32,000 bases of DNA from Candidatus Saccharimonadota bacterium (GTDB lineage: Bacteria > Patescibacteriota > Gracilibacteria > BD1-5 > UBA2023): positions 720,001 to 752,000 of the forward strand of contig OY970170.1 in the NCBI GenBank assembly GCA_963706795.1, read 5' to 3'. This document shows positions 1 to 32,000 of this stretch, in pieces. Each line of letters opens with the position of its first letter. Position 1 is the stretch's first letter. The notes under the pieces are model-generated. The model did not search any database, had not been told where the DNA came from, and worked only from the letters and a program-made list of their open reading frames with translations. The position numbers and the translations under genes are program-made.

Positions 1-2
1 AG

Positions 3-995
3 ATACAAGCAGAGCAGAGTATCGAGGTATCGTTTACACATAAAAAAGATACCCTTGCAGGAACACTCCTGCTTCCAAAGGGGTCTGGTCCATTTCCTTT
101 GGTTATTTTTGTCCATGGAGATGGTCCACAGACGAGGGGTTTGGAGAATTACGCACTGATTATCAATGAATTGCTCCGATCCTGAATCGCCTGTTATTCT
201 TGGGATAAGGCAGGTACTGGTGCATCATCTGGAAATTGGCTGAACCAAACCATGAGTGATCGTGCTGATGAGGCTATCTCACTTTTGAAATCTATTACAA
301 AACGTCAGGATATCGACCCCAAATCTATTGGCTTCCTTGGCTTTTCACAGTGAGGTTGGGTAATACCCGAGATAGCAAATCGATCAGAAGTCCCCGCTTT
401 TTATATGACTGTCGGTGCTGCGGTGAATTGGAGAACTCAGGGTGAATATTTCACTCGTACTCGATTGGCCCGTGCGGGCATAGTCTGAGAGCAGGCAGAT
501 CGGGTGATTTTGTGGCAAAAAAATGCTCCTCAGCCGAGTCTCTCGCGAGCCTACTGAGACTACGTACGTGCGTTTGAATTGTATAAAACATCTATTTCCG
601 TACCAGAGGGTGCAAGTATTGAAGTTCTCTCAGAGGAGAGATACCATTTTATAGCGCTCAATATTGATTCGGATGCGACCCAGTGACTCTCTGCTATAAA
701 AAAACCACTCCTAGCCATCTGGGGAGAGGATGATCTCAATGTGGATGCAATAGAGAACGCTCATACATACCGTACCATACTCGAAAAGCAAACTACGAAG
801 TGAAGTATGGTACGAGTATTTGCTGGTGCAGATCATAAAATGCTCAGATCTGATGCATACGCAGCACAACTTCCGTCAGAGTGGACTATGCTCATGAGTG
901 TGCGATATTTCTTTGAAGCGGAGTCAGCATTTGTCCCAGGCTATCTTCAACTGCTTACTCATTGGATTAGAGAGATACCGCAATCTCCTAGGTAA
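3..995 (+). CDS. alpha/beta hydrolase (5' end off window)
   Basis: Frame 3 is open from the window edge once 6 in-frame TGAs (183, 351, 486, 555, 684, 801) are read as Gly. Peptide: ...PFPLVIFVHGDGPQ...IGFLGFSQ[TGA]GWVIPE...LAIWGEDD...GADHKM. It shows a G-x-S-x-G nucleophile elbow, then Asp and His in the usual order. Ends at TAA 993-995. Confidence 0.85.
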
Positions 996-1026
996 GAACC
1001 CTTTTTAATTACATTCATTTAAAAAC

Positions 1027-2073
1027 ATGGAAGCAAACAAACTGCAAAGCATCCTAGATGCTGTCGTTGATAATAGAAAAATATGGTGAACCTCATTTTC
1101 TATTTCTTACAAAGGAAAATCTTGGAGTGGAACAAGTGGTAATTTTTCTGAAAATGATCAATTCTTCACTGCGAGTACTACCAAATTGTATACCACAACA
1201 GTACTCCTGAATTTAGAATCTGAAAATAAGATCGATATCAGCGACCCCATTTCCAAATACCTCTCAAATGAGATTATACATGGACTACATATCTTGGATG
1301 GAATTGAATATTCGGGTGCTCTTACGATACAAAATCTTCTTGCACATACTTCAGGGTTGCCAGACTATTTTCAGCAAGTAATAGACAAAAAGGGGAGTCT
1401 GCTCGACCTGATCTCAAAAAATACAGATATATCTTGGACATTCGAACAAGCGATCGATTGGTCGAAAAAAATGAAACCAAAATTTATACCAAATAAAAAA
1501 GGATCCGCCCACTATTCGGATACCAATTTTCAACTGCTGGGAAAAATCATAGAAACAGTTACAGAAACAAGCCTAGAAGCAAATTATGAAAAATATATCT
1601 ATACGCCGTTGCAACTAAAGAACACGTATTTATATCGTGATTTTCTCGATCAGAAGCCGAAGAATATCTACTTTAAAGAACACGAACTAACGATTCCGAA
1701 GGCCATGGCATCATTCGGTCCAGATGGATGAATCGTGTCTACATCGCAAGAATTACTCAAATTTCTGATGGCTTTTTCAACTTGAAAACTATTCCCAAAA
1801 TGAAAACTCGCCACTCTTCAGGTATGGAATCCTGTATTTTTCCCTATTGAATCAGGAATTGGTATTCATAGATTCAAACTTCCATGGATTTTGAATCTAT
1901 TTTGAAAAATCCCTACCCTCATAGGGCACTCAGGATTATCGTGAACCTTTGCATATGGAAATACTGATATGGATCTCTATATTGCAGGAACCGTAAATCA
2001 GATATCATCCCCAGAAACTTCCTTTAAGGTTGCTATTGCGCTTATACAGCATCTCTTGAGTAGTAAGAAATAA
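1027..2073 (+). CDS. serine hydrolase, beta-lactamase family (class C-like / PBP4*-like)
   Basis: ATG 1027 to TAA 2071, with 6 in-frame TGAs. Motifs: S-x-x-K (FTASTTKLYTT), Y-x-N (HYSDTNFQLLG), GPDG[TGA]IVST and GHSGLS[TGA]TFAY (the H-x-G equivalent of KTG). Confidence 0.85.
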
Positions 2074-2184
2074 TGCTCATAAAAAGCACATCTCCATAGT
2101 CCCCATTTTGCTCATCCTCAATTGCATCCTCTTGTTCTCTCTGTATACTTTTCTCGTCTGATATTTCCATGTTAATAGTCCAGT

Positions 2185-2535
2185 ATGATCTATTCCAGCG
2201 ACACAAAAATCCAGCAATTTCTTGAGAATGCTTTGCTGAGTAACTACGAATTATTCAGTATTGCTCAGCATCTCAGAGACGCCGTTCGTACTGTGTATCC
2301 GAATGTGCAAGAACGAATGATGTACGGCGGCATCATGTTCTCGCTTGAGAAGGATTTTGGTGGGATTTTTATAAACAAGAGCCATGTCTCTTTCGAATTT
2401 GGAAATGGAATCGCGATGAGCGATCCTCACCTTTTCTTGGAAGGAGAAGGGAAATCTCGTCGACATTTGAAGTTGCGTTCTCTGGAAGATATCACTCAAA
2501 AACAGGCTGATTTTTATATCAGACAGGCTGTGTAA
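2185..2535 (+). CDS. DUF1801-like (YdhG-like) small protein
   Basis: Intact 116-aa ORF ending in TAA and followed by a terminator. The pattern MYGGIMF...FGGIF.NKSHVSFEFGNG resembles DUF1801. This is recalled, not searched. Confidence 0.55.
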   Translation: MIYSSDTKIQQFLENALLSNYELFSIAQHLRDAVRTVYPNVQERMMYGGIMFSLEKDFGGIFINKSHVSFEFGNGIAMSDPHLFLEGEGKSRRHLKLRSLEDITQKQADFYIRQAV

Positions 2536-2550
2536 AATCTATCAATTGAA

Positions 2551-2576
2551 AGCTGGGAATTCTCAGCTTTTTTTCT
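2551..2576 (+). terminator. rho-independent terminator
   Basis: agctggga/tctcagct stem (one G-U pair) followed by a T7 run, 16 nt after the stop at 2535. Confidence 0.75.
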
Positions 2577-2635: not shown

Positions 2636-2989
2636 ATGACTCATCACACTGGAAGCTGTCACTGCGGAGCAGTTCGCTATTCTGTAGATCTTGATCTCAC
2701 TCAAACGGTATACGAATGTAACTGTTCACACTGCCAACGAAAGGGGTTCCTCCTTTCGTTTGTTCCAGCTGCTCAATTTACCCTCGAAAGTGGAGCGGAT
2801 GCGCTTACAGAATATCGATTTAATAAACATGTGATCGCGCATACATTCTGCAAGACATGCGGTGTTCAGTGTTTTTCAAAAAGCAAAAATGCTGACGAAT
2901 CAGAAACATACGCAGTCAATGTTCGAACGATCGAAGATATCGATCTTGTTCCGCTTACTCGAGGTATGTACGATGGAAAGTCTTATTAA
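2636..2989 (+). CDS. GFA family protein (glutathione-dependent formaldehyde-activating / CENP-V-like Zn-binding fold)
   Basis: MTHHTGSCHCGAVRY...CNCSHCQRKG...HTFCKTCG is the characteristic GFA Cys pattern. I chose ATG 2636, because the TTG 2546 start in the ORF track overlaps the upstream terminator. Confidence 0.85.
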   Translation: MTHHTGSCHCGAVRYSVDLDLTQTVYECNCSHCQRKGFLLSFVPAAQFTLESGADALTEYRFNKHVIAHTFCKTCGVQCFSKSKNADESETYAVNVRTIEDIDLVPLTRGMYDGKSY

Positions 2990-5225: not shown

Positions 5226-5256
5226 AAATAAGCAGACTACGTAGTCTGCTTATTTT
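5226..5256. terminator. bidirectional terminator between convergent genes
   Basis: aaaataagcagac-tacgta-gtctgcttatttt, with A/T runs on both sides. Confidence 0.8.
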
Positions 5257-5280
5257 GTTGTCATAATTTTCTTTGTTTAT

Positions 5281-6011: not shown

Positions 6012-6539
6012 ATGCATCGCTACGTCGCATTCCTCCGAGGAATCAATGTCGGTGGGAAGAATATTATCAAAATGGAAGTCCTCGCTCGTGCATTTGAGCG
6101 CGCAGGATTTTTGCAAGTAAAGACCTATATCCAAAGCGGAAATGTGCTTTTTTCGAGTGAAGAATCAGATATTCACACTCTCGAGAAACAACTCGAAGCA
6201 ATGATGCTCACCGAATTTAATTGTCAGACTCGTATTTTGGTCCGTTCCAAAGAGCAAATGTCGACTGTTGTTGCTGGCTTTCCAGAGGTTTTTTCAAATG
6301 CTAAGTGGAAGCATAATGTCATCTTCCTGACTCCTGAGATCGATAGGGCGACCATCATAGAGGAGCTTCGTCACAAACAAGATATCGAGTTGCTTGTCTA
6401 TCTCCCATGAGTGCTCTTTTGGTCGGCAGATTCTGTCCATATCACCAAATCCGCTATGGTAAAGCTCTCCACACGCCCAGAATATAAATGTATGTCCGCC
6501 CGTAATATCAATACGATACGGAAGATTTTAGAGGGATAG
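6012..6539 (+). CDS. DUF1697 family protein
   Basis: MHRYVAFLRGINVGGKNIIKM...YIQSGNVLF is the canonical DUF1697 N-terminus. Extended through TGA 6408 to TAG 6537. Confidence 0.85.
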
Positions 6540-6660
6540 GTGGGACATAGTTTCTTCCTGAAAAAATGTTGTAACTATATATTTGGGAATGAGTAAGTCA
6601 ATCATGCAAAAGCTTACAGCTTCACTCTTTCCTCACCATTTCCCCCTTGCATTCTTCATC

Positions 6661-6706: not shown

Positions 6707-7153
6707 ATGTCATTCGATATTGTATGTCAGATCATGGAGGCCTCTGATTCACTGCGTGCTCTGGGGGATACGCTTGGGGCGAAGATGAATATTGGAACGA
6801 ACGAATATGCCGTCCTCGACGTCCTCATTGAGTCGCCACTTCAGGAGGTTTCACTCCAGGATATTCGGAAGGTTCTGACCCTTCCAGCGCCGTCGCTCAG
6901 TCGTATTATTACGAGATTGGCGCAAAAATGATATATCCAGCGCAAGATTTCTGAGCAGGATTCTCGGATGATGTTTATCTCATTGACCGAGGAAGGGGCG
7001 AGTGCTTTTGGTTCAACAAAACACGTATATAGTAAGTCGCTAGAATCCCTTTTTAAAGATATGTCTCCAGTGTCATCCGAGCTCTTGAGTAAGGAGCTTC
7101 TCGAGCTCCAAAAACGAATCGCACGCCGAATGGAGCACAAGTGAACGATTTAA
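6707..7153 (+). CDS. MarR family transcriptional regulator
   Basis: Winged-helix pattern: ...LQDIRKVLTLPAPSLSRIITRLAQK[TGA]YIQRKISEQDSRMMFISLTEEG.... Two TGAs are read through and the true stop is TAA 7151. Confidence 0.7.
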
Positions 7154-7783: not shown

Positions 7784-10003
7784 ATGAGAAAAACCGCCCT
7801 GTTTGTATTGTTTTTTGGATTCTGTTCGAGTGCGTTTGCGCTCGATTTTCAGACCTTCCGAGATCCAAAAATCCAAAGTTCATACGATCAACTTCGTACC
7901 AAACTTGAGACACGCTATCAAAATGCCTATCCGCTCTCAGACGCGCAACTCAAAAATATTGCGAACTCTGAAGCGACCATCATCACCGCTTATCGTAAAC
8001 TCGAGTGAGCAAAAAATCCTCGTGCACGCGTCCAGGCAAATACCGGCCTCCGCACCCAAACGAAGGCGCTTGATCGCATCCTTGCTGATATCGAAAAAGC
8101 ACGAAAAGGTTCGGTTCTCACTAACTCCAATCCGAGTCCGTTTCCGATTCCAACAACTGGAACAGTTCCGTCGTACGATCCTAATGCACCAGCTTCGACG
8201 GTCTATATACCAAGTAGTTCAGACAACTCCAATACTCCGGTAGTTCCTGCAACTTCCGCTCCACCGATTCCGGCATCTAATGATGCACCGCAAACTCCAT
8301 CAGTCGATACTTCTCTTGCAGCAAGTCTGCTCTACTACGCGGATAGTTTTGAAGGCGGTGGAACAGCAGGTGGAGATAAATTCCGTCAGGGATGATTTTC
8401 GGCAGCGAGGTGTGATGTGACAATTAACTCATTTTTGCAGGTCCGTTATGGCGGTAAGTCCGTCATCGTAAAGGCAAACGACCGACCAAATTGCGCGAAG
8501 CATCCAGATATCGTTGATCTCACAACGACGGCATTTCGCACGCTCGCACCACTCTCGAGTGGCAAATTAGCGGGTTCGTTTATTGCACTCGACAAGACTC
8601 CAAAAGGACTCGTTAAAGAGTTTATACCCACTGATTTCTTTGCGAATTATTCTATCAAACTCGATGCGAATATCCCCAATATTTATCTGCCTAATGAGAC
8701 ACTCAAGCTCTCAGGGAAGACCACTGGATCCGAAAATGAAACCCTCGTCTATCTCCAAATGCCTTCTGGTAAGACGCTCACACTTGGGCAGGATAATCTC
8801 AGCGGCAATCGTTTTGAGTATTACTTCCCACTTACCGAAATCGGTACTTATCAGTTTGTAGTAGCTTCTGGACGAAGTTTTGCAGGCGCGCGATCGCTTA
8901 TGTTTACAGTGCTTGATCCTAAGGTGCTTGCAAAAAAATACTACGAAGGAAATGTTGCTGCAGTAAATGGTATCACGGTTTCGGGGCGACGCGTGGAGAC
9001 AGGTGATCTCACTCCGACAAATCTTGTCTCTGTTAATTGACTTCCAGACAATACACTCCGGTCTGTTAAGATTACGACAGCGAATGGTTCTGTCAGTCGT
9101 ACGAGCATGTCAGATGTAGCCTTTAGTCCTCGTGAACTCAGTATATTTGAAGACGGATCCCGCGCCCGAGTTGATGTAACTGCGCGATCGAGTTCCACTC
9201 CGTATTCGATTGATACCTACACAAATTCGACTCCTGTCTTCTCAGATGAATACGTCTTGGCTCCTGCATACACTGTTGAGAGCAGCGAAAATATCGCTGT
9301 TCAGGCTCAAAATGGCGTCCTCACGGTCAAAATCGGCAATGGGGTTACTAAGGCAATCCGCAACAAAGTCTATGTTATGACGCCAAGTGGCGGGGTAGAA
9401 GAAGTTTCATTTGATGCTGCGTTTACAGGTCCAAATGGTGCTCTCGCAAACACGAATGGTGCCAAGCTCACTCATAAACTCACGGAGGATGGAGTCTATC
9501 TCGTAGAAGTCCTCTATGACACCGGCTTTGCTGCCTATCTCGGACCAGTTATGAATGGAAAAGTCCTCCCAATCCTCCCAAATGTCTATGATCTTGCCTC
9601 CAAAGATGTCAGCACGGATGTGGCAAGTGCTCAATCGGATATGCTTGCCTCGATCAATGCGATCCGCAAAAAACGTGGCCTGAGTCCAGTTGCACTCGAT
9701 GCTAATCTCAATCGACTCGCTAATTTTAAGGCGCAGGATATGGCCGACAATAACTATGTTGGACATGTGGATTCGCAGGGTGGATATATCGTAGATACTG
9801 CAAAGCGCGCAGGCGTTGAACTCCAATGATCGATTGGCGAAAATGTCGCCGGTGGAACGGTTGGTGCGATGTACCTTCAATCAGGACTTCTCCTCTCAGG
9901 TGCACACAGATCAAATATGCTCGGCACTCGCTGGACTAAAGTCGGCATTAGCATCGTTGTCAAAGGTGACAAGACCTCAGTTGTTCAGGTATTTGCACCA
10001 TAA
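7784..10003 (+). CDS. secreted protein with RlpA-like double-psi beta-barrel domain and C-terminal CAP/SCP (YkwD-like) domain
   Basis: Signal peptide MRKTALFVLFFGFCSSAFA. Track ORFs 7784-8008, 8417-9040 and 9107-9829 share one frame and join through TGAs at 8006, 8393, 9038 and 9827. DPBB-like: YYADSFEGGGTAGGDKFRQG[TGA]FSAA...VIVKANDRPNC...IVDLTTTAF. CAP-like: INAIRKKRGLSPV...NYVGHVDSQGG...GENVAGG...GAHRSNML. Stop is TAA 10001. Confidence 0.75.
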
Positions 10004-10924: not shown

Positions 10925-13237
10925 ATGAGAACCTTTTTTACTTCAGCAATCGTCTCAGTGCTTGCACTCTGAACGATAGGTCAGATGACCACATTTGCAG
11001 ACGTTACAGATACTTCACTCCTTATTAAGGATAAGCCGGTAGCTACTCCCGACTTTTCGGTGAAGACCTTTGCAAGCTGTACTGATATGCGTACAAAAGT
11101 AGCAGATTTCATGGAGCTCTATTACGAAAAGCATCCTCCATACCAGTATCCCATCTATGATAAGGGTGGACCAATGATGCTAGAAACTACTGCTCCAATC
11201 TCAGCAGTTCCTCCTGCTGCCGCAAATGTTGGACAGTCAACAGGCGGTAAGTCTGCTACTTCTGCCGATCATTCAACAACCAATAGTCGTACGATCGGCG
11301 TTGATGAGCCAGAGCGTGTAAAAACTGATGGAAATTACCTCTACTCTGCCAATGATACAGAGCATATGGTCTACATCCACAAAGCTGACGACACACTCCA
11401 GATTATTAAAAAGATCGCGCTTCCAGCGGAGTATTCAAATACCGAGCTCTTCGTTGATGGTGATCGTCTCGTGATTGTCGCAAGTAAATATGTATATAAC
11501 AATCTCTATCGTTCAGCTTGGATCGATCGCGCATCTAAGACGGTCGTAGTAACATATAATATCGCGGATATTAATAATCCAGTGATTGATCGTTACTACC
11601 AGATCGATGGGAACTATCGTGAAGCACGCCTCACAAATGGTGAGCTTACTGTGCTCTCAACTACGAGTTTTAATTTCCCATATGAGCGCTATGTTCGTCC
11701 ACACGTAAAGGGAACAGAGCTCATTATTGATACTGACAAACTCACAAGCGAATTTTCTTCTGCGAATGTTCTTCCTCGTAAGATCGAGATTGCACCAACG
11801 AGCAAGATCGACAATATTAATGACTACCTCACGGATTCTCGTAAGACTGCACGACTTCGTGAACTCTACGCGGGTAACTGTGCTGATGTGTCCTATGTTT
11901 TTCCAGATGCGAAGACACTTGAGTCATATAACTTTACGCCAAGTTTTACGGCCGTTACAACGCTCAATATCCGTAATAACAAGCAAAAATCACATACGAA
12001 ACTCCTCTTTGGAGATGTAGACAAGACCTATGTTTCGCCTACAAATAAACTCTATGTAACTTCGACACTTTACTCGCCATATTCAAATGCATGTCCTCCT
12101 GGGGCGATGTGTCTCATGAGATTTATGCAGTCAGGGACGAATACCCTCATTCATAAATTTGATCTCAGTAATCTCGGAGCACGCTACGAACAGACAGGAA
12201 TCGTCGGCGGATCGCTTCTGAGTGATTACGCAATCGATGAAGGAAGCGATGGAAGTGTCCGCGTAGTAACTCACAAGACAGACGGCAAGACCGACAATGT
12301 TGTATCAGTGCTTGGTAAAAATCTCATACCCGTATCTACTCTTGCCGGCATCGCTCCAACCGAAAATTTCCAATCTGCGAGATTTATCGGGGACAAGCTC
12401 TATCTCGTGACCTTTAAACAGATCGATCCACTCTTTGTAATCGACCTCGCGGATTCAAAAAATCCAAAGATTCTCGGTGAGCTCAAGATTCCAGGATATT
12501 CGACATATCTTCACCCATATGACGCGACGCACCTCATTGGTATCGGCTATGATACTTCGACAAATGAATGGGGAGGTACGCAAAATAATGGAATCAAGAT
12601 CGACCTCTATGACATCTCGGATTTTAAAAATCCAAAACAGCAGTCGACACTCACGCTCGGTAATGGACCAAGTACCTACTCTGACGCACTGAGCAATCCA
12701 CGCCTCTTTGTATGGCAAAAATCCAAGAATCTTCTCTATCTTCCAGCAAGTCTCTACAAGGTTCCGGATACAAAAAATCCATACCGATATAGCGACATTT
12801 TCCAGGGAGTTGTTGCACTCTCGATCACACCAGAAACTGGCGTAGTCGAAAAAGCCCGCACAACTCACCTCGATATCATCGACGACAAGACACTCGAAGC
12901 AGCTCGCACCAAAGAATGTCTCGCATATTCCGCACCAAAAACTCCCGTATGTAAGAAGCTCATCGGAGGTGGAGAATACTGTGAGTCAGCAGGTTCGACT
13001 TATGTCCCAAGCTATTGCTACGCGGATTCACCTATCTCAGAATACAAGGCCACACAGATCTGGAATTACTCAAATAATTTCATCGATCGAGTTCTGTATT
13101 CAGGAAACCGCCTCTTCACCTTCTCAAATGCTCGTATCGATTCACTCGATATCGACGCAGGACTCCTCCAGAAGGGAAGCGTCAAAATTATGACAGAAAG
13201 CGGTTCAGTGGTGCCTACGCCAAAGCCAATGTACTAA
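10925..13237 (+). CDS. secreted beta-propeller domain protein (COG4880 / Beta_propel family)
   Basis: Extended upstream through TGA 10970 to ATG 10925, which yields the signal peptide MRTFFTSAIVSVLAL[G]TIG. Family hallmarks: VDEPERVKTDGNYLY and ARFIGDKLYLVTFKQIDPLFVIDLADSKNPKILGELKIPGYSTYLHPYDATHLIGIG. Confidence 0.85.
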
Positions 13238-19400: not shown

Positions 19401-19568
19401 GGTAAAGAGATATTTCTAGATGAAATTCCGTATGCTTTCCATATTAAGGATGAGTGATATGATGCAAAGGATATAGACGCGAATAGAACTGGTGCCCAAT
19501 TCGGAAGATATCTAAAGAGGTATGAGAATTCAAGTGGTAATGTTTTACCCTCTTCTATTATTAAATAA
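13461..19568 (+). CDS. RHS/YD-repeat polymorphic toxin, WapA-like (signal peptide, LamG, YD repeats, RHS core, C-terminal toxin CT1)
   Basis: Track ORFs 13401-, 13665-, 15006-, 18174- and 18939- all lie in frame 0 and fuse through 14 TGAs with no TAA/TAG, giving 2035 aa. Signal: MNSLRKKVCAIWMIALIVSSHLSIVEA. Dozens of YD repeats (YxYDxxGNxxxxxD). Core end: RFFTGREYDKEIGLYYLRARFYDPTTGRFISRDPIGQNDQVNLYTYVGNNPLGFVDLMGM. Stop is TAA 19566. Confidence 0.92.
14034..14687 (+). other. LamG / concanavalin-A-like lectin domain of the RHS protein
   Basis: GKWDLNGSPADSSGNGNNAV...FNGTNSYLDAG...ISGWIKS...NQWYHVIFELD...ARFYLDGSLY...GKMALLRFFKREKLSSSEVQSLY matches the LamG_3 pattern. Confidence 0.75.
18641..18998 (+). 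repeat. RHS core 3' homology block, copy A (in the full-length gene)
   Basis: cactaatcgatacttcttccacaagaatcatcttggaagtgttgtagggcttacgaataacacatgagttctcgtagc... recurs at 20040. The first ~75 nt have only a few mismatches; the remainder is clearly homologous but more diverged. Confidence 0.9.
18999..19565 (+). other. CT1: variable C-terminal toxin domain of the full-length RHS protein (function unknown)
   Basis: Begins immediately after the ...VDLMGM core boundary, where similarity to the two downstream cassettes stops abruptly. 189 aa, with 5 in-frame TGAs. Confidence 0.7.
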
Positions 19569-19577
19569 GATGATCTT

Positions 19578-20036
19578 ATGTATAAAAAGTGGCTTGTTGC
19601 AGTTTTAGTTGTGTGGATTTTATTATCTCTTTTGTCGATGATAAATAGCAAATATTTTGTCAGCGATGTCCAGCACACAGAAAGTGTAAATATACTAAAT
19701 AAATCGACAGCAAATATTCAGATTAAGACACCACAGAGCTCCTCCTTTTTATATCCAGGAGAAAAGAGTGCTTTTCAAGTGGATATAAAAAAGTCTATTC
19801 AAGAAAGAATGTTTCAGATTCTAAATAGCAGTGGAGCTGTTATTTTCAGCTATCGGGACTTTGTCAGGCCTGCTAATGATAACGTGACTTGATATGAGGA
19901 GGCTCTAAAGGGAATTTATACCACAGGAAGTCTTTCTGTCCATACAACAGTGAGTCATAAAACAGACGCATACTACTTTCCGTTTTATATACTTAACGAG
20001 ATTATGGAACATGCGATCCATATTGATGTTAATTAA
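19578..20036 (+). CDS. putative immunity protein 1 (N-terminal membrane anchor)
   Basis: Starts 9 nt after the RHS stop. MYKKWLVAVLVVWILLSLLSMI forms a TM helix. One TGA (19890) is read through to TAA 20034. The assignment rests on its position immediately downstream of the toxin tip. Confidence 0.6.
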
Positions 20037-20868
20037 TATCACTAATCGATACTTCTTCCACAAGAATCATCTTGGAAGTGTTGTAGGGCTTACGAATAAC
20101 ACATGAGTTCTCGTAGCGGAGTACCAATACGATACCTTTGGAAATCCCTCTGCTAGATCAGGAAGCGGAGCATTCACAAAGATTACTTCAACTACTTCGA
20201 CACTCTACGACAATACTCGACTCTTCACTGGGCGAGAATATGACAAAGAACTCTCACTCTACTACCTAAGAGCGAGATTCTATGATCCAACAACTGGAAG
20301 ATTCATCTCACGAGATCCGATTGGGCAAAATGACCAGATTAATCTCTATGTATATGTCGGTAATAATCCGATGAGATTTGTGGATTTGATGGGGATGAAG
20401 ACAAAAATAGTCGCGACAATCACAATTTATTCCAGCAATGGATGAGCCTCAAGCGATTGAGATATTAGTGCTTGACATAGTTGGATTGAAATCACAAACA
20501 AGAGTACCAATATAACAATCACTTACTGACTATGGCCTAATAGATGATGAGAGGATGAGCCGAAATGGAAGGCTAAGCCTATCTTTAATGGTATTCAGAC
20601 TAATGGTCCAGAAAAATCGTATACTGAAAATGACTACAAACAAGCCGCATCTTTAACAATGTCACTAAACAAAGATCAATTAAAAGCAGTGAGAAGCAGT
20701 ATAGCAGATCAAATTGTTGACTGAAAGACCTGGGGTAACTTTGCACCTTGCTCAGACTTTGCATCGAATGTATGGAATTCTGTATCTAACAATACACTAG
20801 AAGATAGAAACGATTTTGGTCTAAGTAATCCGACTACTTTATTGAATTCTATTAACTCTTATAAGTAA
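20026..20868 (+). CDS. orphan RHS C-terminal cassette 1 (core fragment + toxin CT2)
   Basis: Homology to 18641-18998 starts at 20040. The frame is open back to ATG 20026, overlapping the immunity-1 stop. Peptide: (M)LINITNRYFFHKNHLGSVVGLTNNT[G]VLVAEYQYD...NNPMRFVDLMGM, followed by an unrelated 156-aa tip with 7 TGAs. Stop is TAA 20866. Confidence 0.8.
20040..20397 (+). repeat. RHS core 3' homology block, copy B
   Basis: Collinear with 18641-18998 and the same length (358 nt). Confidence 0.9.
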
Positions 20869-21248: not shown

Positions 21249-21251
21249 TCA

Positions 21252-22079
21252 GATCCCTCTGTAAGATCAGGCACTGGAACATTCACAAAGATTACTCCAA
21301 CTACTTCGCCACTCTACGACAACAGTCGACTCTTTACTGGACGAGAATATGACAAAGAAATCGGACTCTACTACCTAAGAGCGAGATTCTATGATCCAAC
21401 AACTGGTCGATTTATATCACGAGATCCGATTGGGCAAAATGACCAGATTAATCTCTATGTCTATGTTGGGAATAATCCGTTAGGGTTTGTGGATTTGATG
21501 GGAAGAGAAAGTAAACCAGTGGTGCAGGTTTTTAGTAATGCAAAGAATGATATAAGTAAATTTCATGAAAACTTAGCACTACTAAGATCTAATACTAGCT
21601 GAAAGATGCAGACGATATTGGATAAACTATATCTTCCTTACAATGTAGACGAACCAAGTTCAAGGCCACTTGTTTATGCATATTATTTTAATTTAGAATA
21701 TCATGGCACAGTGCGCGGTGTTACTGGTGAGGGAAAGTATGATTTAGCACTTGGACAAAATGGCTGAGTGAATGCTATGTCATCTTATACGGCTGACGAT
21801 ATGTTTAATATACGTTGAACAAAAATTCCAGTAGCACAAGTTTCCAATGTTCTGACGGCTTTGAATGCATACCGCTTAGGTATTTCTGAAGATGAGCTTA
21901 AGACTGGTGCTATGGCAACGGTAGTTGCTTGAGGAGGGAATGGTATAAAATGAGAGATAAAAGACCATATTCTTTATGATGCAGGATATCAACTCGGTGA
22001 ACTTGAGAGATCGGGTGTATTAACAGATGAGATTCTTCTTCAGAAGCTTATTGATGCATCTCAAAAACGAGGTGACTAA
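21252..22079 (+). CDS. orphan RHS C-terminal cassette 2 (shorter core fragment + toxin CT3), no start codon at its 5' boundary
   Basis: Homology (atccctct..agatcagg...) starts at 21253, matching 20144 and 18745. It is in frame with immunity 2, directly after that gene's TAG. Peptide: ...FTGREYDKEIGLYYLRARFYDPTTGRFISRDPIGQNDQINLYVYVGNNPLGFVDLMG, then a unique 191-aa tip with 5 TGAs. The first in-frame GTG/TTG/ATG are at 21489-21498. Stop is TAA 22077. Confidence 0.75.
21253..21503 (+). repeat. RHS core 3' homology block, copy C (5'-truncated)
   Basis: Collinear with 18745-18995 and 20144-20394. Confidence 0.9.
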
Positions 22080-22663: not shown

Positions 22664-23902
22664 ATGAAAAAACAGAATTTCCTCATTGCAGGATCCTCCC
22701 TTTTTCTTCTCTTCTGAGTATTTATTTCCAGTCCTCTTATATCCAACATTGTCCATGCGGAAGATACTCCAGTGACAACAGTTACTGCGGGTGGTATTCG
22801 TGTGCCAAATATACCAAAAGATCGCACAAAAAAGGGGCCCATGGTCATGGATTTTATATCTTTGCTTAAAGCAGGGAAATATACGGAGGGGCTTGCAGTA
22901 TATAGGGAGGCTATCAAAATAGCAGATCACCCAGAATTCCTCACGGGTGAAATGTTTATTGATAAAAAGATTGTTACACGACTGGCGAGTCTGAACAAGA
23001 AGCTAGAAGTTGCTAAAACAGCTACTAGCAAGAGCAATCTGCTCATTTTGCAAGGAAATGCTCGTTACGATGCATGAAACTATCTCTACTATCGTGACAG
23101 ACAAAAATATAGCTTGGTGGTACTCTATCAGTACCTGCTTGCAGTGGAGGCATTTGATAAATCCATCCTTATTACTGATAACTCTATAGCTCACAGGCAG
23201 AAATGAATCGTTATGAATGATCTTGGTTGATCAGAGGATCTGGCTATATCAGAGCTACAAAAAGCAATCGCAATGGATCCTTCAGACGACCGTGCCTTTT
23301 ATAGATTAGGGAATCTCTATTGAAAAAAGAAACAGTATGATCTTGCTATCTCATCCTATCTAAAATCTTTGTCTATTAATGGAAGTAATGAGCTTTCCTA
23401 TCTAAATCTTTGAGCTGCTTACAGTAATGCTTGAGAGGATGCTAAAGCTTATCAAGCCTATAATGATATGCTGAAGATATGTAAAGGCTATTGCCATGTT
23501 GCGGAATATAATATTTGAAGTCAGAAAATGTTTGAAGAAAAATACGATGAAGCTATCGAGTATATTGATCTTGCAATTAAACATGCAGCAGATAAGTGAG
23601 TAGTTTATAGGAATGCTTACCTTTTAAAGTGAACTATGTTTCAACTTCACTTTCGACCTCAAGAAGCATTAACAAATCTCAAAATGGCCGTGAATGATCC
23701 GAAGGAAATAAATACTGATGATAATAATCATAGTATATGTGATTATCCGGCTAGAGTGCATGCAAGAATTGCAGCAGCATATTTTGATCTTGGTGATCTT
23801 GAAAATTCTAAAAAGGAAATGAATATCAGTATCTCTATGGAGTCAGACGATCCGGAAACCAAACACATCATTGAGGTATGGAAGTCAAAAATGGGGCAAT
23901 AA
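22664..23902 (+). CDS. secreted TPR-repeat protein
   Basis: MKKQNFLIAGSSLFLLF[G]VFISSPLISNIVHA is a signal peptide. Track ORFs 22772-23077 and 23636-23902 join through 10 TGAs. TPR-like units: AFYRLGNLY[G]KKKQYDLAISSYLKSL and YLNL[G]AAYSNA[G]EDAKAYQAY. Confidence 0.75.
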
Positions 23903-25364: not shown

Positions 25365-25376
25365 TGAACTGTATTT

Positions 25377-25404: not shown

Positions 25405-25456
25405 CACGCCAGCTTTTTTAAAGCATCAAACCAAAACCCATAGAAGGAGGTGTATC

Positions 25457-26164: not shown

Positions 26165-26175
26165 AAACCCATTAT

Positions 26176-26203
26176 TTGACATAAACAATCGTACATGTAA
26201 ACT
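26176..26203 (+). promoter_or_regulatory. promoter of paralog unit 2 (TTGACA-N16-TAAACT)
   Basis: TTGACA at 26176-26181 and TAAACT at 26198-26203. Confidence 0.7.
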
Positions 26204-26271
26204 CCGACGCAGTCTTCCAGGCAATGCACTGGATCACATACATCAAATCATACAAATACAGGAGGTGTATT

Positions 26272-26988: not shown

Positions 26989-26991
26989 ACT
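26964..26991 (+). promoter_or_regulatory. promoter of paralog unit 3 (TTGACA-N16-TAAACT)
   Basis: TTGACA at 26964-26969 and TAAACT at 26986-26991. Confidence 0.7.
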
Positions 26992-27068
26992 CTGATCAGT
27001 TTTCCGATTCGGTTGAGCTGGATTACCAAATCTGATTCATATCAAAACACAGAGAATGGAGGTATATC

Positions 27069-27683
27069 ATGTACAGCAAGCAAAACATTAATTCGTGTTT
27101 AGCTCATACGTATGGTCTGCAGGAACCATTGTCACCAGGTCTTATTGCTACATATAACAAAAAAGTCGTGGGCATTCCTGAGCTGGCATCATTTGCCTTT
27201 TGGCTTGTCTTGGGAATGGTGAGTGCCTCCTGTATCATCTTTTATGTTGATATAAAAGATCTCATGATTGGCTTTGGAGTCGTTGTTATTATCCTTAATG
27301 CTCATCCCATAAGGAGTATCCGTTGTACAACATCCGAGATCCATAGTCTTGCTATGCAGATGAGCGGTACTGAAGGTGAGCTGAGATCTCGCATACTCGA
27401 ACGACATCTCGATCAATCGAATGCTCAGTATTTGCTTGAGAGATGTTTTAGATATCAACATCTCTGTATTTGGCCAAAATTAGCGCTGTTGCGCTATGCA
27501 TGCTGTGCAATCTTTTACGGGGCGCTTCTATTCCAGGGGCAATACTGGCTCGCTGTTGGAGTGATTGCATCAGGCTTAGTAAGCATGTACCAAATAAGCA
27601 AAGCACAAGAGTACATTCAGTGGTACTTGCTGCAACTTATGGAAAAGGCGGGCGTGAAGTTTTTGATTATATGGCAAGTGTAA
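27069..27683 (+). CDS. 4-TM paralog family protein, copy 3 (function unknown)
   Basis: TGGAGGTATATC-ATG context. 204 aa, no internal TGA. Motifs LAHTYGL and KAQEYIQWYLLQL. It ends in a genuine TAA upstream of its terminator. Confidence 0.75.
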   Translation: MYSKQNINSCLAHTYGLQEPLSPGLIATYNKKVVGIPELASFAFWLVLGMVSASCIIFYVDIKDLMIGFGVVVIILNAHPIRSIRCTTSEIHSLAMQMSGTEGELRSRILERHLDQSNAQYLLERCFRYQHLCIWPKLALLRYACCAIFYGALLFQGQYWLAVGVIASGLVSMYQISKAQEYIQWYLLQLMEKAGVKFLIIWQV

Positions 27684-27706
27684 CTGACTGAATGCATCAA
27701 TAATCT

Positions 27707-27771: not shown

Positions 27772-29097
27772 TTATGCTTTTTTCTTCGCCGTCTTCTTTT
27801 TTGTGACAGCTTTTTTCTTTGGTACATCTTCTTTTACTTCCTCTTTTTTCTCTTCAACAACTACTGGTGGTTTATTACTTGGACGTAGCTTTTTTGGTTT
27901 TGCCTCTGTCATTTCTCAAATCACTGTTGCTGGCTTACGAAGTATTCCAAATATGGAGAAATAAACCATGACCATCGCGCCTTCTGTGATCAAAAACCCG
28001 AGGAAGGTGAAGATGGATTCTATTTTCCATGCATCTGGATCGACGGCACTGTTATCGAGATATGGGAAGATGGCTTCGAGATATTGTGGATCAACACCAT
28101 CGGTTTTTGGATTGAATGCGTTGTTGATAGCGATGATACGCGCAATGTCTGTTTCGTTCAGCGCAAAGGCATTGAGGAAATGGTGCTTGATATATGAGTG
28201 ATCATCGACGAAGGTTTTTGGATCGGCTTTGGCGATTGCATTAATTGCGGTTTCTGCCCGTCCGATGAGGATTTTGTTACCAGTTCCTGTGATAAATCCG
28301 CCAACTGTTCCGATGATTGCAAGGAATGGGAGGATCAAAAAGAGCATCTTAAAGATCTTGCCCTTTGTGAGTGCGAGCGAATCTGTTACAAAGCTTCGGG
28401 CAGTCTTGGCCTTGTTTTCTTTATCCAAGAGCATCATATATCCGAATGTCATGCGGATCGCAAGAAGTGTCATCCATACGACACACACAACAAATCCAAC
28501 GAGCGAAATCCCGCCAAGGATCAACGAATGTGTCTGGTTACCTGGATTGAGTAGACCAAAATGCGTTGCCAGGAAGAGTACAAAAAGGATGGTGATCCCA
28601 GTCACGATCGGAGGCAAAACATAGAGCGAAGTCCACCCAAGAATCCCGAGGAACTTTTGGAGATGATAGCGCGAGAAAAACAGATTTTTAAAAATCGGGA
28701 GCTTCGTTCCTGCGAGGTAACTCTCATAGAGTTTGATCTCCAAAAAGTATGCATAAGTGAGTGTAAATCCAAAGATCGCAATAATCTTTACAAACAAAAT
28801 TCCCACACCGAGCAATATCCATGAATGCCCCATCAGTGCACCAAGAAGCCCATTATCAATACTTCCAGAAGTCGTAAAGAGTGAGAGCGAAGCCTCAGGT
28901 ACGGGACTGAGCACCACATATCCAGCCCAAACGATCAGTCCAATCGCCGGAAGAGAAAGAATTGTCGCGAAAACAAAGGCGTATGCCCAAATCACGATCT
29001 TGCTCGCATTCCAATGAAAGAAGTTTTTGTAGAGCAACGAAATATTTCGCATGATCAGTGTCAGCGAGAGCCAGTAGGTGTTGAGAATGGATTTCAT
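27772..29097 (-). CDS. multipass membrane protein with Lys/Glu-rich C-terminal tail
   Basis: Track ORF 27916-29106, with ATG at 29097 preferred over TTG 29106. The terminal TGA (tca at 27916-27918) is read as Gly and extends the protein by 47 aa: EMTEAKPKKLRPSNKPPVVVEEKKEEVKEDVPKKKAVTKKKTAKKKA. It then ends at TAA followed by a terminator. It has multiple long hydrophobic segments; no family recognised. Confidence 0.7.
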
Positions 29098-29420: not shown

Positions 29421-31214
29421 ATGCACAGATCTCATACCTGTGGTGAACTTACCACTGCTCACATTGGGCAAACCGTTACCCTCTCTGGTTGGGTGACAAA
29501 CCGCCGCGACCACGGAGGAGTCGTGTTTATCGATATGCGTGACCGCTACGGTATTACTCAGACAGTCTATGATCCAGCTGATGGTGCAGCAGATGGTACG
29601 ATGGAACTCGCACAGTCATACCGCGCTGAATACGTAGTTAAGATCACCGGACTCGTTCGCGCTCGCCCAGTTGGTCAGGAAAACGACAAACTCGTTACTG
29701 GTGGTATCGAGATCGCCGTGATGCAGGCAGAGATTCTTTCAGAGTCTAAGCTCCCTCCGTTTGAGATCGATACACACTCTCAGGCCAATGAAGAAGTACG
29801 TCTCAAACACCGCTACCTCGACCTTCGCCGTAAGCCAGTTCTCGAAACGATCGAATTCCGAGCTCGAATGAACCGATTCACACGAGACTGGTTCAGCGAC
29901 CGAGGATTCCTCGAGGTTCAGACTCCGATTTTCACGGCGTCATCTCCAGAAGGGGCTCGTGACTTCCTCATCCCATCACGACTTCATCACGGGAAATTCT
30001 ACGCGCTTCCACAGGCTCCACAGCAGTACAAGCAGCTCCTCATGGTGGGTGGGGTAGATAAGTATTTTCAGATTGCGCCGTGTTTCCGAGACGAAGATCC
30101 ACGCGCAGATCGACACTCGTGTGAATTCTACCAGATCGACTGTGAGATGAGTTTTGTAGAACAGGAAGACGTGTTTGCAGTGGCTGAACCATTCGCACTC
30201 GACCTCGTTACGACGATGACTCCACACAAGCACGTGAAGGCTGCGAAGTTCCCACGATATACGCATACAGAGGCGCTCGATCTTTTTGGATCAGATAAGC
30301 CAGATGTACGATTTGATATGCACTTTGAGGAGCTCAGTGAGGATTTCCGAGATTCTGGATTCTCAGTGTTCGCAGCAGCCGTTGCAGAAGGCGGAGTGGT
30401 GAAAGCGATGAAATACGAAGGATCAAAAGGGAAGGGGATCATGAGTCGATCTGAGATCGATGCACTCACAGCAACTGCTCAGGCAGAAGGAGCAAAGGGA
30501 CTCGCCTACATCATCTACGAAGCAGAAGGTCCACGCTCTCCGATCCTCAAGTTCTTCACGGGAGGTGAACTCGCAGCACTCGAGGCACGTTTTGCACCAC
30601 AGCCAGGAGATATGATCTTCTTCGGAGCTGGTGAGCGAAAACTCGTGAACAAGGTTCTCGGGAAGGTGCGTCTCGCGATGCGCGATACGTTCGATCTCGT
30701 AGACAAGAACGAACTCGCATTCGCTTGGATTACGGATTTCCCAATGTACGAGCTCAAGGACGATGGATCATACGACTTTGAACACAACCCATTCTCTATG
30801 CCACACGGCGGAGCAGCAGCGTTCAACGAAGGTGTTGACCCACTCTCGATCTACGGTTGTCAGTATGACCTCGCATGTAACGGGTACGAAGTCCTCTCAG
30901 GATCTATCCGCAACCACAATATCGCAGCACTCGTGAAGGCATTCGAGATCGTAGGAAAGGGAGAAGAAGAAGTGAAGGCAAAGTTCGGTGCGGTGTACAA
31001 TGCATTTCAGTACGGAGTTCCTCCACACGGAGGATTCGCGTTTGGATTCGACCGACTCCTCATGATCCTCAAGGATGAGACCAACATCCGTGAAATCTAC
31101 GCATTCCCAAAATCTGGAAAGGCCGAAGACACGATGATGGAAGCTCCAGCCGAGATCGACGACAAGCAACTCCGCGAACTCCACATCAAGGTGCGAGAGC
31201 ATCACGGAAAATAA
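29421..31214 (+). CDS. aspS: aspartate--tRNA ligase (bacterial type)
   Basis: MHRSHTCGELT...GWV..RRDHGGVVFIDMRDRYG (OB-fold N-terminal domain). Class II motifs: FRDEDPRADR and GGFAFGFDRLLM. 597 aa from ATG 29421, no in-frame TGA, TAA stop. Confidence 0.95.
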   Translation: MHRSHTCGELTTAHIGQTVTLSGWVTNRRDHGGVVFIDMRDRYGITQTVYDPADGAADGTMELAQSYRAEYVVKITGLVRARPVGQENDKLVTGGIEIAVMQAEILSESKLPPFEIDTHSQANEEVRLKHRYLDLRRKPVLETIEFRARMNRFTRDWFSDRGFLEVQTPIFTASSPEGARDFLIPSRLHHGKFYALPQAPQQYKQLLMVGGVDKYFQIAPCFRDEDPRADRHSCEFYQIDCEMSFVEQEDVFAVAEPFALDLVTTMTPHKHVKAAKFPRYTHTEALDLFGSDKPDVRFDMHFEELSEDFRDSGFSVFAAAVAEGGVVKAMKYEGSKGKGIMSRSEIDALTATAQAEGAKGLAYIIYEAEGPRSPILKFFTGGELAALEARFAPQPGDMIFFGAGERKLVNKVLGKVRLAMRDTFDLVDKNELAFAWITDFPMYELKDDGSYDFEHNPFSMPHGGAAAFNEGVDPLSIYGCQYDLACNGYEVLSGSIRNHNIAALVKAFEIVGKGEEEVKAKFGAVYNAFQYGVPPHGGFAFGFDRLLMILKDETNIREIYAFPKSGKAEDTMMEAPAEIDDKQLRELHIKVREHHGK

Positions 31215-31215
31215 T

Positions 31216-31255
31216 AAAAACCCTCCGAAGCCCGAAAGAGCGAAGGAGGGTTTTT
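31216..31255 (+). terminator. rho-independent terminator of aspS
   Basis: aaaaaccctcc...ggagggttttt. Confidence 0.75.
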
Positions 31256-31301
31256 CGTGGATTTTTCTTTGGATGTGATTTCAAACCGATATAATGAGCA
31301 C

Positions 31302-31460
31302 ATGAAAATCCTCGAACAGACTTCGCGCAGTGTCACCGTAAAAATGTCAAAGACTCTCTTCGACAAAGTTTTGGCTATGCAAAAGCTAGAAGACGAACTC
31401 ACAAGCTACGAATTTCGTTTCGATACTCCTGTTTCCACCAAAGAATTGCTTTCAAAGTAA
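31302..31460 (+). CDS. putative antitoxin (small protein upstream of RelE-family toxin)
   Basis: Small ORF ending 9 nt before the toxin start. ATG 31302 is preferred, because the track start GTG 31257 abuts the 3' end of the aspS terminator. No family recognised; assigned by position only. Confidence 0.5.
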   Translation: MKILEQTSRSVTVKMSKTLFDKVLAMQKLEDELTSYEFRFDTPVSTKELLSK

Positions 31461-31469
31461 GACATAAGA

Positions 31470-31706
31470 ATGACACCTCAGTGGCGAAAATATATAGCGC
31501 GCCACCCCCAGAAGAACAAACTTCTGGAGATTATTATGAGGATTCAATCTGAAGATTTTGCAGGATTAGATCTAAAGAAACTCAAAGGTTTTGAGAATCT
31601 CTATCGGGTAAGACATGGAAGCATTCGCATCATTTTTATGAAAAAAGATGATGAAAATTACATCGTTGCGGTCGATACTCGATGAGATGTATATAAAAAA
31701 TTCTAA
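31470..31706 (+). CDS. type II toxin, RelE/ParE superfamily
   Basis: ...LKKLKGFENLYRVRHGSIRIIFMKKDDENYIVAVDTR[TGA]DVYKKF matches the RelE/StbE pattern (G..YR.R.G.YRII. ... R..VY). TGA 31683 is read as Gly and the true stop is TAA 31704. Confidence 0.75.
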
Positions 31707-32000
31707 CCCTCAAACACAAACTTCTCTCCAACCACAATCTCTCCAGCGAGTATCTTTTTAGCGATAGGATTTGAGACGAGATCATTGACGGCACGTTTCA
31801 TAGGGCGGGCTCAGAATTCGGGATCGAATCCTTCGTGCATGAGTTTGTTTGCGAGTCATGGAGCAAATTCGACGAGGAATCCTTCGTCTTGGAGACGGGA
31901 TTTAATGACCACGAGCTCCTTCTCGGCAATGAGTCGAACGAGAAATTCATCGAGTGGTCGGTAAAAGACAATCTCATCGATTCGACCCAAGAGCTCAGGC
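31703..32000 (-). CDS. Clp/Hsp100 AAA+ ATPase (ClpB/ClpC family), C-terminal fragment; 5' end off window
   Basis: Minus strand: PELLGRIDEIVFYRPL...GFDPEF[TGA]ARPMKRAVNDLVSNPIAKKILAGEI, giving the D2-small domain and the sensor-2 GARP motif. Stop TAG (cta at 31703-31705) overlaps the relE-like stop by 2 nt. Confidence 0.85.

What the first reader, a model, noticed from the sequence alone, without database searches (positions are those of the whole stretch)
1..32000. Whole window is recoded: TGA encodes glycine (genetic code 25, Gracilibacteria/Absconditabacteria-type)
Standard-code ORFs are short and fragmented, yet neighbouring fragments are always in the same frame and separated only by TGA, never TAA or TAG. 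The TGAs fall on invariant glycines of unrelated families:
- GFSQ-TGA-GW, the G-x-S-x-G nucleophile elbow (351-353).
- GPDG-TGA-IVST in a beta-lactamase-fold hydrolase (1729-1731).
- EF-TGA-ARPMKR, the Clp sensor-2 GARP motif (minus strand, 31811-31813).
- TPR position-8 glycines (for example 23411-23413).
- DTR-TGA-DVYKK at the RelE C-terminus (31683-31685).

These positions exclude Trp (code 4). Every downstream annotation depends on this reading. It also places the sequence in an uncultured, probably episymbiotic CPR lineage, where almost no toxin systems have been characterised.
Basis: partly seen in the sequence, partly recalled or inferred. Interest (0 to 1): 0.7.

Follow-up and report, generated by a model that had tools for sequence, protein, structure and literature searches.

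The report
TGA read as glycine throughout
This 32-kb stretch comes from an uncultured Gracilibacteria-type bacterium that reads the stop codon TGA as glycine, a known variant genetic code (table 25); every gene call here depends on using that table, but the recoding itself is not new.

Summary
In a curated set of 30 genes (9,606 codons, 90% of the window) there are 92 in-frame TGA, no in-frame TAA or TAG, and every gene ends in TAA or TAG. Reading TGA as sense raises ORF coverage from 70% to 92% and doubles mean ORF length; making TAA or TAG sense instead does not.

In 12 TGA columns with deep standard-code homolog sets, glycine is the only residue with positive log-odds (+15 bits). Tryptophan scores -49 bits. 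Further TGAs align to the ClpB sensor-2 glycine, TPR positions 8 and 15, and a conserved Rhs glycine. One TGA in the main Rhs gene is GGA and GGC in two paralogous copies inside the window.

The AspRS gene is 72-89% identical to Gracilibacteria MAG orthologs. Their in-frame TGAs fall on window glycines in 484 of 576 cases and never on tryptophan.

About half the testable TGAs sit at variable positions, so "invariant glycines" is overstated, notably for the RelE site. A tRNA-Gly(UCA) gene and loss of RF2 could not be checked. This is table 25, already known, and the source genome (a 1.27-Mb contig) is already public.

The parts
1..32000 (.). Whole window: TGA is a sense (Gly) codon and only TAA/TAG terminate. 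The curated set has 30 genes and 90% coding density.
3..995 (+). Alpha/beta hydrolase (Hydrolase_4-like, 5' end cut by the window) with 6 TGA. 183-185 aligns to Gly in 112/120 homologs. 351-353 is the nucleophile elbow (Ala 100 / Gly 19; Gly in 5/5 PDB relatives). The other four TGAs are at variable positions.
1027..2073 (+). Beta-lactamase-fold serine hydrolase (PF00144) with 6 TGA. 1087, 1729, 1783, 1903 and 1942 align to at least 95% Gly in 60 Bacteroidota-type homologs. 1801 is at a variable (Ser) position.
2636..2989 (+). GFA-family protein, no TGA. The exact protein is public on a 1,267,896-bp contig.
6012..6539 (+). DUF1697 protein with 1 TGA (6408-6410); the column is ambiguous in the single PDB relative.
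6707..7153 (+). MarR-family regulator. TGA 6929-6931 aligns to Gly in 3/5 PDB relatives. A CGG codon at aa 87 falls on the conserved wing Arg.
7784..10003 (+). Secreted DPBB + CAP domain protein with 4 TGA at variable positions. It belongs to the conserved backbone shared with related MAGs.
10925..13237 (+). Beta-propeller domain protein (PF09826) with 1 TGA in the signal peptide. Backbone gene; it lies next to AspRS in relatives.
13461..19568 (+). Rhs/YD-repeat toxin of 2035 aa with 14 TGA. 18705-18707 aligns to Gly in Tse15. 18762-18764 is GGA/GGC in the two orphan copies. The core 14859-18002 is almost free of TGA (1 of 94 Gly codons).
20011..20868 (+). Orphan Rhs C-terminal cassette 1 (8 TGA). 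It shares the core-end repeat 20039-20393 with the main gene.
21249..22079 (+). Orphan Rhs C-terminal cassette 2 (5 TGA, no start codon). Core-end repeat at 21253-21502.
22664..23902 (+). TPR protein with 10 TGA. 23411-23413 aligns to Gly8 and 23432-23434 to Gly15 of the consensus TPR. 23321-23323 aligns to variable position 12.
27772..29097 (-). Membrane protein with 1 TGA. Backbone gene shared with related MAGs.
29421..31214 (+). Aspartyl-tRNA synthetase: 0 TGA among 49 Gly codons, GC 51.5%. Used for placement and for the ortholog TGA test.
31470..31706 (+). RelE/ParE-like toxin. TGA 31683-31685 is at a variable position. The public copy is truncated at this TGA (71 aa).
31703..31999 (-). 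ClpB C-terminal D2-small domain (gene cut by the window end). TGA 31811-31813 is the Gly of the sensor-2 GAR motif. 31856-31858 is at a variable position.

Best explanation
The window is chromosomal DNA of an uncultured Gracilibacteria (BD1-5-type, Patescibacteria/CPR) bacterium that uses NCBI translation table 25. UGA is decoded as glycine and only UAA and UAG terminate translation.

Shown here:
- UGA is in frame in 24 of 30 genes.
- It stands where homologs and paralogs have glycine or small, variable residues, never tryptophan.
- It supplies about 13% of glycine codons, more in AT-rich genes.

Inferred from what is established for this lineage: decoding is by a dedicated tRNA-Gly with anticodon UCA, and release factor 2 has been lost, so UGA cannot terminate.
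For: Sense status: 92 in-frame TGA against 0 TAA/TAG, and all stops are TAA or TAG. Coverage rises from 0.70 to 0.92 and mean ORF length doubles only when TGA is made sense.

Glycine identity:
- 5 of 6 TGA columns in the beta-lactamase-fold gene are at least 95% Gly in 60 standard-code homologs.
- Hydrolase column 61 is Gly in 112/120 homologs, and the elbow column is Ala or Gly.
- Log-odds over the 12 columns are G +15 bits, the next residue A -12, and W -49. Control TGG columns score W +5.0 bits per column and GGN columns G +2.9.
- The ClpB GAR glycine, TPR Gly8 and Gly15, an Rhs Gly and a MarR Gly in 3 of 5 relatives add further sites.
- An in-window paralog comparison gives TGA = GGA = GGC.
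- The recoded ortholog L081 has GGN at 3 window TGA sites and TGA at the elbow.

Lineage:
- AspRS is 72-89% identical to Gracilibacteria MAG orthologs.
- 484 of 576 TGAs in related AspRS genes lie on window Gly columns and 0 on Trp columns. 41 of 49 window Gly columns are TGA in some relative.
- 57 of 70 related loci gain at least 0.10 coverage with TGA as sense, while outgroup CPR and Proteobacteria loci do not.

Literature: UGA to Gly in Gracilibacteria and Absconditabacteria, with tRNA-Gly(UCA) and loss of RF2 (PMC8629427; gTranslate preprint 10.64898/2026.05.24.727570; PMC4032931).
Against: No tRNA gene lies in the window, and no UCA-anticodon tRNA was seen in the 60 related loci scanned. 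The prfB status is unknown, so the decoding machinery is inferred and not shown.

About half of the testable window TGAs sit at variable columns (S, N, E, D or gaps), which by themselves do not identify the amino acid.

Composition alone does not decide the question: Trp would be 1.86% if TGA were Trp, which is high but not impossible.

Homolog sets from metagenomes could contain a few table-25 or table-4 translations. One such protein (P0121) was found and excluded.
Confidence: 0.95

Rival explanations
1. TGA encodes tryptophan (table 4), as in Mycoplasmatales, some insect endosymbionts and some recoded phages.
For: Table 4 gives the same gain in ORF length and coverage as table 25. One public pipeline did translate a related contig that way, producing P0121 with Trp at the elbow.
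Against: W has the lowest log-odds of all residues (-49 bits) over 12 columns, and no TGA column is Trp-rich. Window TGG columns are W in homologs, so Trp already has its own well-behaved codon. None of the 3 AspRS Trp columns is ever TGA in 78 orthologs. The paralog TGA aligns to GGA and GGC.
Confidence: 0.01
2. The code is standard and the TGAs are real stops: the window is a field of pseudogenes or carries sequencing or assembly errors.
For: Under table 11, coverage is still 0.70 and a few long ORFs exist. A derived public collection calls the genes with table 11.
Against: There are 92 interruptions, all TGA, with none by TAA or TAG and no frameshifts. Homology continues in frame across every tested TGA. 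The TGAs sit on conserved Gly columns, and the same pattern is seen in dozens of independent related MAGs.
Confidence: 0.005
3. The TGAs are selenocysteine codons or sites of programmed read-through.
For: TGA is the Sec codon in the standard code.
Against: The sites are spread over 24 of 30 unrelated genes, including toxins, TPR and membrane proteins. Cys, the usual Sec counterpart, scores -49 bits. No RNA family such as SECIS reached threshold in the window.
Confidence: 0.005
4. The code is an extended Absconditabacteria-type code: UGA = Gly and, in addition, CGA and/or CGG reassigned to Trp.
For: Shulgina and Eddy predict CGA/CGG to Trp in Absconditabacteria and CGG to Trp in some Gracilibacteria (PMC8629427). 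CGG is rare here, at 20 per 10,000 codons.
Against: CGA is common (94 per 10,000) and aligns to Arg over 20 columns. The one CGG at a strongly conserved site, the MarR wing D-x-R, is Arg in 5 of 5 PDB relatives. The only other aligned CGG column favours Gln or Arg, not Trp.
Confidence: 0.03

Closest known systems
NCBI translation table 25 (Candidate Division SR1 / Gracilibacteria code; Campbell et al. 2013, Rinke et al. 2013, Hanke et al. 2014, PMC4032931)
   Same: UGA is read as glycine, UAA and UAG are the only stops, UGG stays Trp, the host is a small-genome CPR bacterium, and GC lies within the reported 0.21-0.53 range.
   Different: Nothing differs in kind. tRNA-Gly(UCA) and RF2 loss are not visible in this window. 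TGA usage is moderate (13% of Gly codons) and very uneven between genes.
Translation table 4 (UGA = Trp; Mycoplasmatales, Hodgkinia, Zinderia, Nasuia, Stammera, some Eggerthellaceae)
   Same: UGA is a sense codon, and the gain in coding density is the same.
   Different: The amino acid is Gly, not Trp.
Absconditabacteria extended code (UGA = Gly plus CGA/CGG = Trp; Shulgina and Eddy 2021, PMC8629427)
   Same: UGA = Gly in a sister lineage.
   Different: CGA clearly encodes Arg here (20 columns). CGG shows no sign of Trp but has too few informative columns.

Membership tests
Genetic code 25 (UGA = Gly) | UGA occurs in frame inside genes, with homology continuing across it | tested here: met
   92 in-frame TGA in 24 of 30 genes. 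Alignments run through the TGAs.
Genetic code 25 (UGA = Gly) | UGA columns align to glycine in standard-code homologs | tested here: met
   G scores +15 bits and is the only positive residue over 12 columns. ClpB GAR, TPR G8/G15 and an Rhs Gly add further sites. An in-window paralog shows TGA = GGA/GGC.
Genetic code 25 (UGA = Gly) | Only UAA and UAG are used as terminators | tested here: met
   23 TAA and 7 TAG gene ends. C-termini of the hydrolase and beta-lactamase-fold genes match the homolog ends.
Genetic code 25 (UGA = Gly) | tRNA(UCA) with glycine identity elements (G1:C72, C2:G71, G3:C70, U73) | not testable with these tools
   No tRNA in the window and none with UCA in the 60 related loci scanned. 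The source genome was not retrievable.
Genetic code 25 (UGA = Gly) | Loss of release factor 2 (prfB) | not testable with these tools
   This needs the whole genome; only 32 kb is held.
Genetic code 25 (UGA = Gly) | Belongs to the Gracilibacteria/Absconditabacteria clade (GTDB class JAEDAM01: orders BD1-5 and Absconditabacterales) | tested here: met
   AspRS best hits are Patescibacteria or Gracilibacteria MAGs at 72-89% identity, with SR1/Absconditabacteria at 53-57%. Backbone synteny is shared with Gracilibacteria MAGs. Placement rests on best hits, not a phylogenetic tree.
Genetic code 4 (UGA = Trp) | UGA columns align to tryptophan | tested here: not met
   W scores -49 bits. 0 of 3 AspRS Trp columns are ever TGA in relatives.
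Absconditabacteria extended code | CGA and CGG align to tryptophan | tested here: not met
   CGA aligns to Arg over 20 columns. For CGG, the one conserved site is Arg and the data are too few to settle it.

The most novel reading that the evidence does not exclude
TGA-Gly density may record how long a gene has lived behind the code barrier.

The ~14-kb Rhs island is absent from the same site in related MAGs. It combines an almost TGA-free Rhs core (1 of 94 Gly codons) with TGA-laden orphan toxin tips and the small ORFs that follow them. Meanwhile, two hydrolase genes whose nearest named homologs are in Betaproteobacteria and Bacteroidota have each acquired 6 TGA.

If this is not simply a GC effect, it would show repeated import of standard-code genes into a code-25 episymbiont, followed by 'code-locking'. 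It would also show that polymorphic Rhs toxins are part of a Gracilibacteria cell's armoury.
Probability: 0.15. Interest if true: 0.5.

Novelty: already known. Interest (0 to 1): 0.22.

Why it matters
Practically, every annotation of this window depends on using table 25. With table 11 the genes are truncated, and with table 4 they get Trp at glycine positions. Both errors are present in public derived protein sets for this genome and a relative.

Scientifically, the recoding itself is textbook. It does confirm that the toxin and other genes here belong to a code-25 CPR bacterium.

Tried and rejected
Finding the source genome, to look for tRNA-Gly(UCA) and prfB:
- Exact-protein position look-ups for AspRS (two start variants), GFA and the truncated RelE all failed.
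- Exact 42-mer scans of GTDB representative genomes and of JGI metagenome contigs found nothing.
- Cluster look-ups gave only the contig length of 1,267,896 bp and no accession.

Other dead ends:
- An ARAGORN scan of 60 related loci found no tRNA with anticodon UCA.
A TGA-free 57-aa fragment of orphan toxin 1 gave no meaningful hits.
- The RelE homolog search returned only the genome's own truncated copy and one 54%-identical protein, so that column stays weakly tested.
- The DUF1697 TGA column was ambiguous in its single PDB relative.
- An Rfam scan of the window found nothing.

Method notes:
- A greedy longest-ORF gene call is unreliable with TGA as sense, because long antisense ORFs appear. 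An example is the 677-codon antisense open frame (675 aa start to stop) opposite AspRS. A curated gene list was therefore used for codon statistics.
- Several + strand ORFs first taken as genes (5245-5715, 6597-7043, 7093-7710) were replaced by better candidates on other frames.
Full report
**1. Checking the observation**

The window is 32,000 bases at 42% GC.
- GFSQ-TGA-GW at 351-353;
- GPDG-TGA-IVST at 1729-1731;
- EF-TGA-ARPMKR on the minus strand at 31811-31813;
- LNL-TGA-AAY at 23411-23413;
- DTR-TGA-DVYKK at 31683-31685.

Under table 11 the reading frames break into same-frame pieces ending in TGA. Reading through TGA gives a tiling of long ORFs, mostly on the + strand, including one of 2,069 codons stop to stop (the 2,035-aa Rhs gene).

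I curated 30 genes from these ORFs, using homology and signal-peptide or start context. They cover 90% of the window.
- In their reading frame there are 92 TGA, 0 TAA and 0 TAG.
- The two off-frames hold 114/126/171 and 261/70/344 TAA/TAG/TGA.
- Twenty-three genes end in TAA and seven in TAG.
- Twenty-four of the 30 genes contain at least one in-frame TGA.

A mechanical greedy ORF call gives:

| Stop set | Coverage | Mean ORF length |
|---|---|---|
| Table 11 | 0.70 | 171 aa |
| TGA sense | 0.92 | 326 aa |
| TAG sense (control) | 0.77 | 169 aa |
| TAA sense (control) | 0.84 | 173 aa |

So the effect is specific to TGA.

**2. Which amino acid: evidence from inside the window**

*Beta-lactamase-fold gene (1027-2073, PF00144, E = 1e-36).* It has 2,003 homologs. 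The best are 52-58% identical, and those that carry a source name are from Bacteroidota (Maribacter, Chitinophagales, Saprospiraceae), on contigs of up to several Mb, so they are standard-code organisms. In an alignment with the 60 best, five of its six TGA columns are Gly in 57-60 of 60 sequences. The sixth is variable, mostly Ser.

*Alpha/beta hydrolase (3-995).* It has 120 listed homologs, mostly Proteobacteria such as Deefgea, Roseateles and Morganella.
- TGA column 61 is Gly in 112 of 120.
- The nucleophile-elbow column 117 is Ala in 100 and Gly in 19. It is Gly in 5 of 5 PDB relatives.
- The other four columns are variable.

*Log-odds test.* Summed over these 12 columns, glycine is the only residue with a positive score (+15 bits). 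Alanine is next at -12. Tryptophan and cysteine are last at -49. As controls, the same genes' TGG columns score W at +5.0 bits per column, and their GGN columns score G at +2.9.

*Alignments to solved structures* add further sites:
- the Gly of the ClpB sensor-2 GAR motif (31811-31813);
- Gly8 and Gly15 of the consensus TPR (23411-23413 and 23432-23434);
- a Gly in the Rhs core-end motif of Tse15 (18705-18707);
- Gly in 3 of 5 MarR relatives (6929-6931).

*Paralog comparison.* The core-end segment of the Rhs gene is repeated three times in the window. Where the main gene has TGA (18762-18764), orphan copy 1 has GGA and orphan copy 2 has GGC.

*A mistranslated ortholog.* The best database hit to the hydrolase (P0121) carries Trp at the elbow. 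Its contig (L081, 42.8% GC) shows a TGA codon there, in-frame TGAs in all four of its genes, and GGN at three other positions where the window has TGA. That public protein is therefore a table-4 mistranslation of a recoded relative.

**3. Evidence from the lineage**

The AspRS gene (29421-31214) has no TGA. It finds 592 related loci in GTDB representative genomes. The best 80 are led by Patescibacteria or 'Peribacteria'-labelled MAGs at 88-89% identity, then many Candidatus Gracilibacteria MAGs at 72-77%. SR1/Absconditabacteria are at 53-57%, and other CPR and Proteobacteria near 52%.

In an alignment of 78 orthologs, the relatives carry 576 in-frame TGAs.
- 484 of them lie in columns where the window has Gly.
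- None lies in a Trp column.
- 41 of the window's 49 Gly columns are TGA in at least one relative.

The same direction holds for the DPBB-CAP, beta-propeller and membrane-protein orthologs. Of 70 related loci of 8 kb or more (69 AspRS loci plus L081), 57 gain at least 0.10 coverage with TGA as sense, including the closest (L001, 0.68 to 0.92). The outgroups (Moraniibacteriota, Buchananbacteria, a Gammaproteobacteria-labelled MAG) gain nothing.

**4. Other codons**

A Codetta-like pass over 1,261 aligned codons found no other convincing departure from table 11. The only other flagged codon was AGC, weakly, on four columns (D 0.55 bits per column).

CGA aligns to Arg over 20 columns, so the CGA-to-Trp change predicted for Absconditabacteria is absent. 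CGG is rare, at 20 per 10,000 codons. Its one strongly conserved site, the MarR wing D-x-R, is Arg (PMC8629427 read).

**5. What was overstated or not testable**

'Invariant glycines' is too strong. About half of the testable TGAs lie at variable columns holding S, N, E, D or gaps.
- The GPDG-x site is Gly in near homologs but E/D/D/A in the PDB relatives.
- The elbow site is Ala or Gly.
- The RelE site is variable; Ser in the only distinct homolog found.

No tRNA lies in the window, and no tRNA(UCA) was found in the 60 related loci scanned. The prfB status needs the whole genome. The source genome could not be fetched. However, the window's TGA-free proteins occur exactly in the public collection on one 1,267,896-bp contig, from NCBI, Logan and ENA. 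RelE is present there only as a 71-aa product cut at the TGA, which is a table-11 call.

**6. Mechanism**

Shown: UGA is a sense codon used for about 13% of glycines (92 TGA against 596 GGN). UGG remains Trp, with 87 codons. Only UAA and UAG terminate.

Inferred from what is established for this clade: UGA is decoded by a tRNA-Gly(UCA), and RF2 has been lost so UGA cannot terminate (PMC8629427; gTranslate preprint 10.64898/2026.05.24.727570).

**7. Comparison and novelty**

This is NCBI table 25. It was described in SR1/Absconditabacteria and Gracilibacteria in 2013 and in a BD1-5 bacterium in 2014 (PMC4032931), and it is routinely predicted by current tools. All testable defining features are met, and two (tRNA, RF2) are not testable here. 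Table 4 fails its defining test.

The finding is therefore correct and essential for annotation, but already known. The genome itself appears to be public.

**8. Things seen in passing**

- *An inserted Rhs island.* Related MAGs have DPBB-CAP, beta-propeller, a minus-strand membrane protein and AspRS side by side. In the window, about 14.4 kb (13.3-27.7 kb) is inserted between the beta-propeller and the membrane protein. It carries the Rhs gene, two orphan Rhs C-terminal cassettes each followed by a small ORF, a TPR protein, small ORFs and three tandem paralogous membrane proteins.
- *Uneven TGA usage.* AspRS has 0 TGA among 49 Gly codons and the Rhs core 1 among 94 (p = 5e-5). The TPR gene has 10 of 24 and ORF 24471-24938 has 7 of 13. 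The TGA share falls with gene GC (Spearman rho -0.70). GC-driven codon choice is the simple explanation; recent import of TGA-poor genes is the more interesting one and was not tested.
- *Imported genes with TGA.* The two hydrolase genes at the 5' end have their nearest named homologs outside the CPR, yet carry six TGA each.

Noticed in passing
window 13300-27700: An island of about 14.4 kb is absent from the same site in related Gracilibacteria MAG loci, where the beta-propeller, a minus-strand membrane protein and AspRS are adjacent. It holds a 2035-aa Rhs toxin (13461-19568) and two orphan Rhs C-terminal cassettes (20011-20868; 21249-22079, which has no start codon). The Rhs gene and each cassette are followed by a small ORF, a candidate immunity gene (19578-20036, 20874-21248, 22106-22639). 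A core-end repeat occurs three times (18640-18994, 20039-20393, 21253-21502). No paper in the held library links Rhs toxins with Gracilibacteria.
   Followed up: partly
window 14859-18002 and 29421-31214, versus 19578-24938: TGA usage among glycine codons is very uneven. The Rhs core has 1/94 and AspRS 0/49, against 10/24 in the TPR gene, 7/13 in ORF 24471-24938 and 8/23 in orphan cassette 1. The share falls with gene GC (Spearman rho -0.70, p = 2.5e-4). This is either GC-driven codon choice or a mark of recently imported genes.
   Followed up: partly
window 3-2073: The alpha/beta hydrolase and the beta-lactamase-fold hydrolase have their nearest named homologs in Betaproteobacteria (Deefgea, 50-54%) and Bacteroidota (Maribacter, Saprospiraceae, 52-58%), not in CPR bacteria. 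Each nonetheless carries six TGA-Gly codons. They look like imported genes that have since adapted to the variant code.
   Followed up: partly
window 31470-31706; L081 1544-2620: Public derived protein sets mistranslate this lineage. The window's RelE exists there only as a 71-aa product cut at the TGA (table 11). The hydrolase ortholog on JGI contig L081 is stored with Trp at the nucleophile elbow (table 4), where the DNA has TGA.
   Followed up: yes
window 25457-27683: Three tandem paralogous predicted membrane proteins have no Pfam match. Two carry a TGA near the C-terminus. In the first, the sequence after the TGA resembles the true C-terminal tail of the third paralog, which fits read-through as sense.
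   Followed up: partly
window 31302-31706 and 31703-31999: A small antitoxin-like ORF (31302-31460) and a RelE/ParE-like toxin (31470-31706; weak ParE_toxin match, E = 0.004; M. jannaschii RelE3, E = 0.002) lie between AspRS and a convergent ClpB gene. The 3' ends of the toxin and ClpB overlap by 4 nt.
   Followed up: partly
L011 (CAYZVC010000003.1), whole locus: This 56%-GC relative (74% AspRS identity) shares the beta-propeller, the membrane protein and a TPR match with the window. It shows almost no coverage gain with TGA as sense, yet has ORFs with 6-11 in-frame TGAs. The simple coverage heuristic therefore fails at higher GC.
   Followed up: partly
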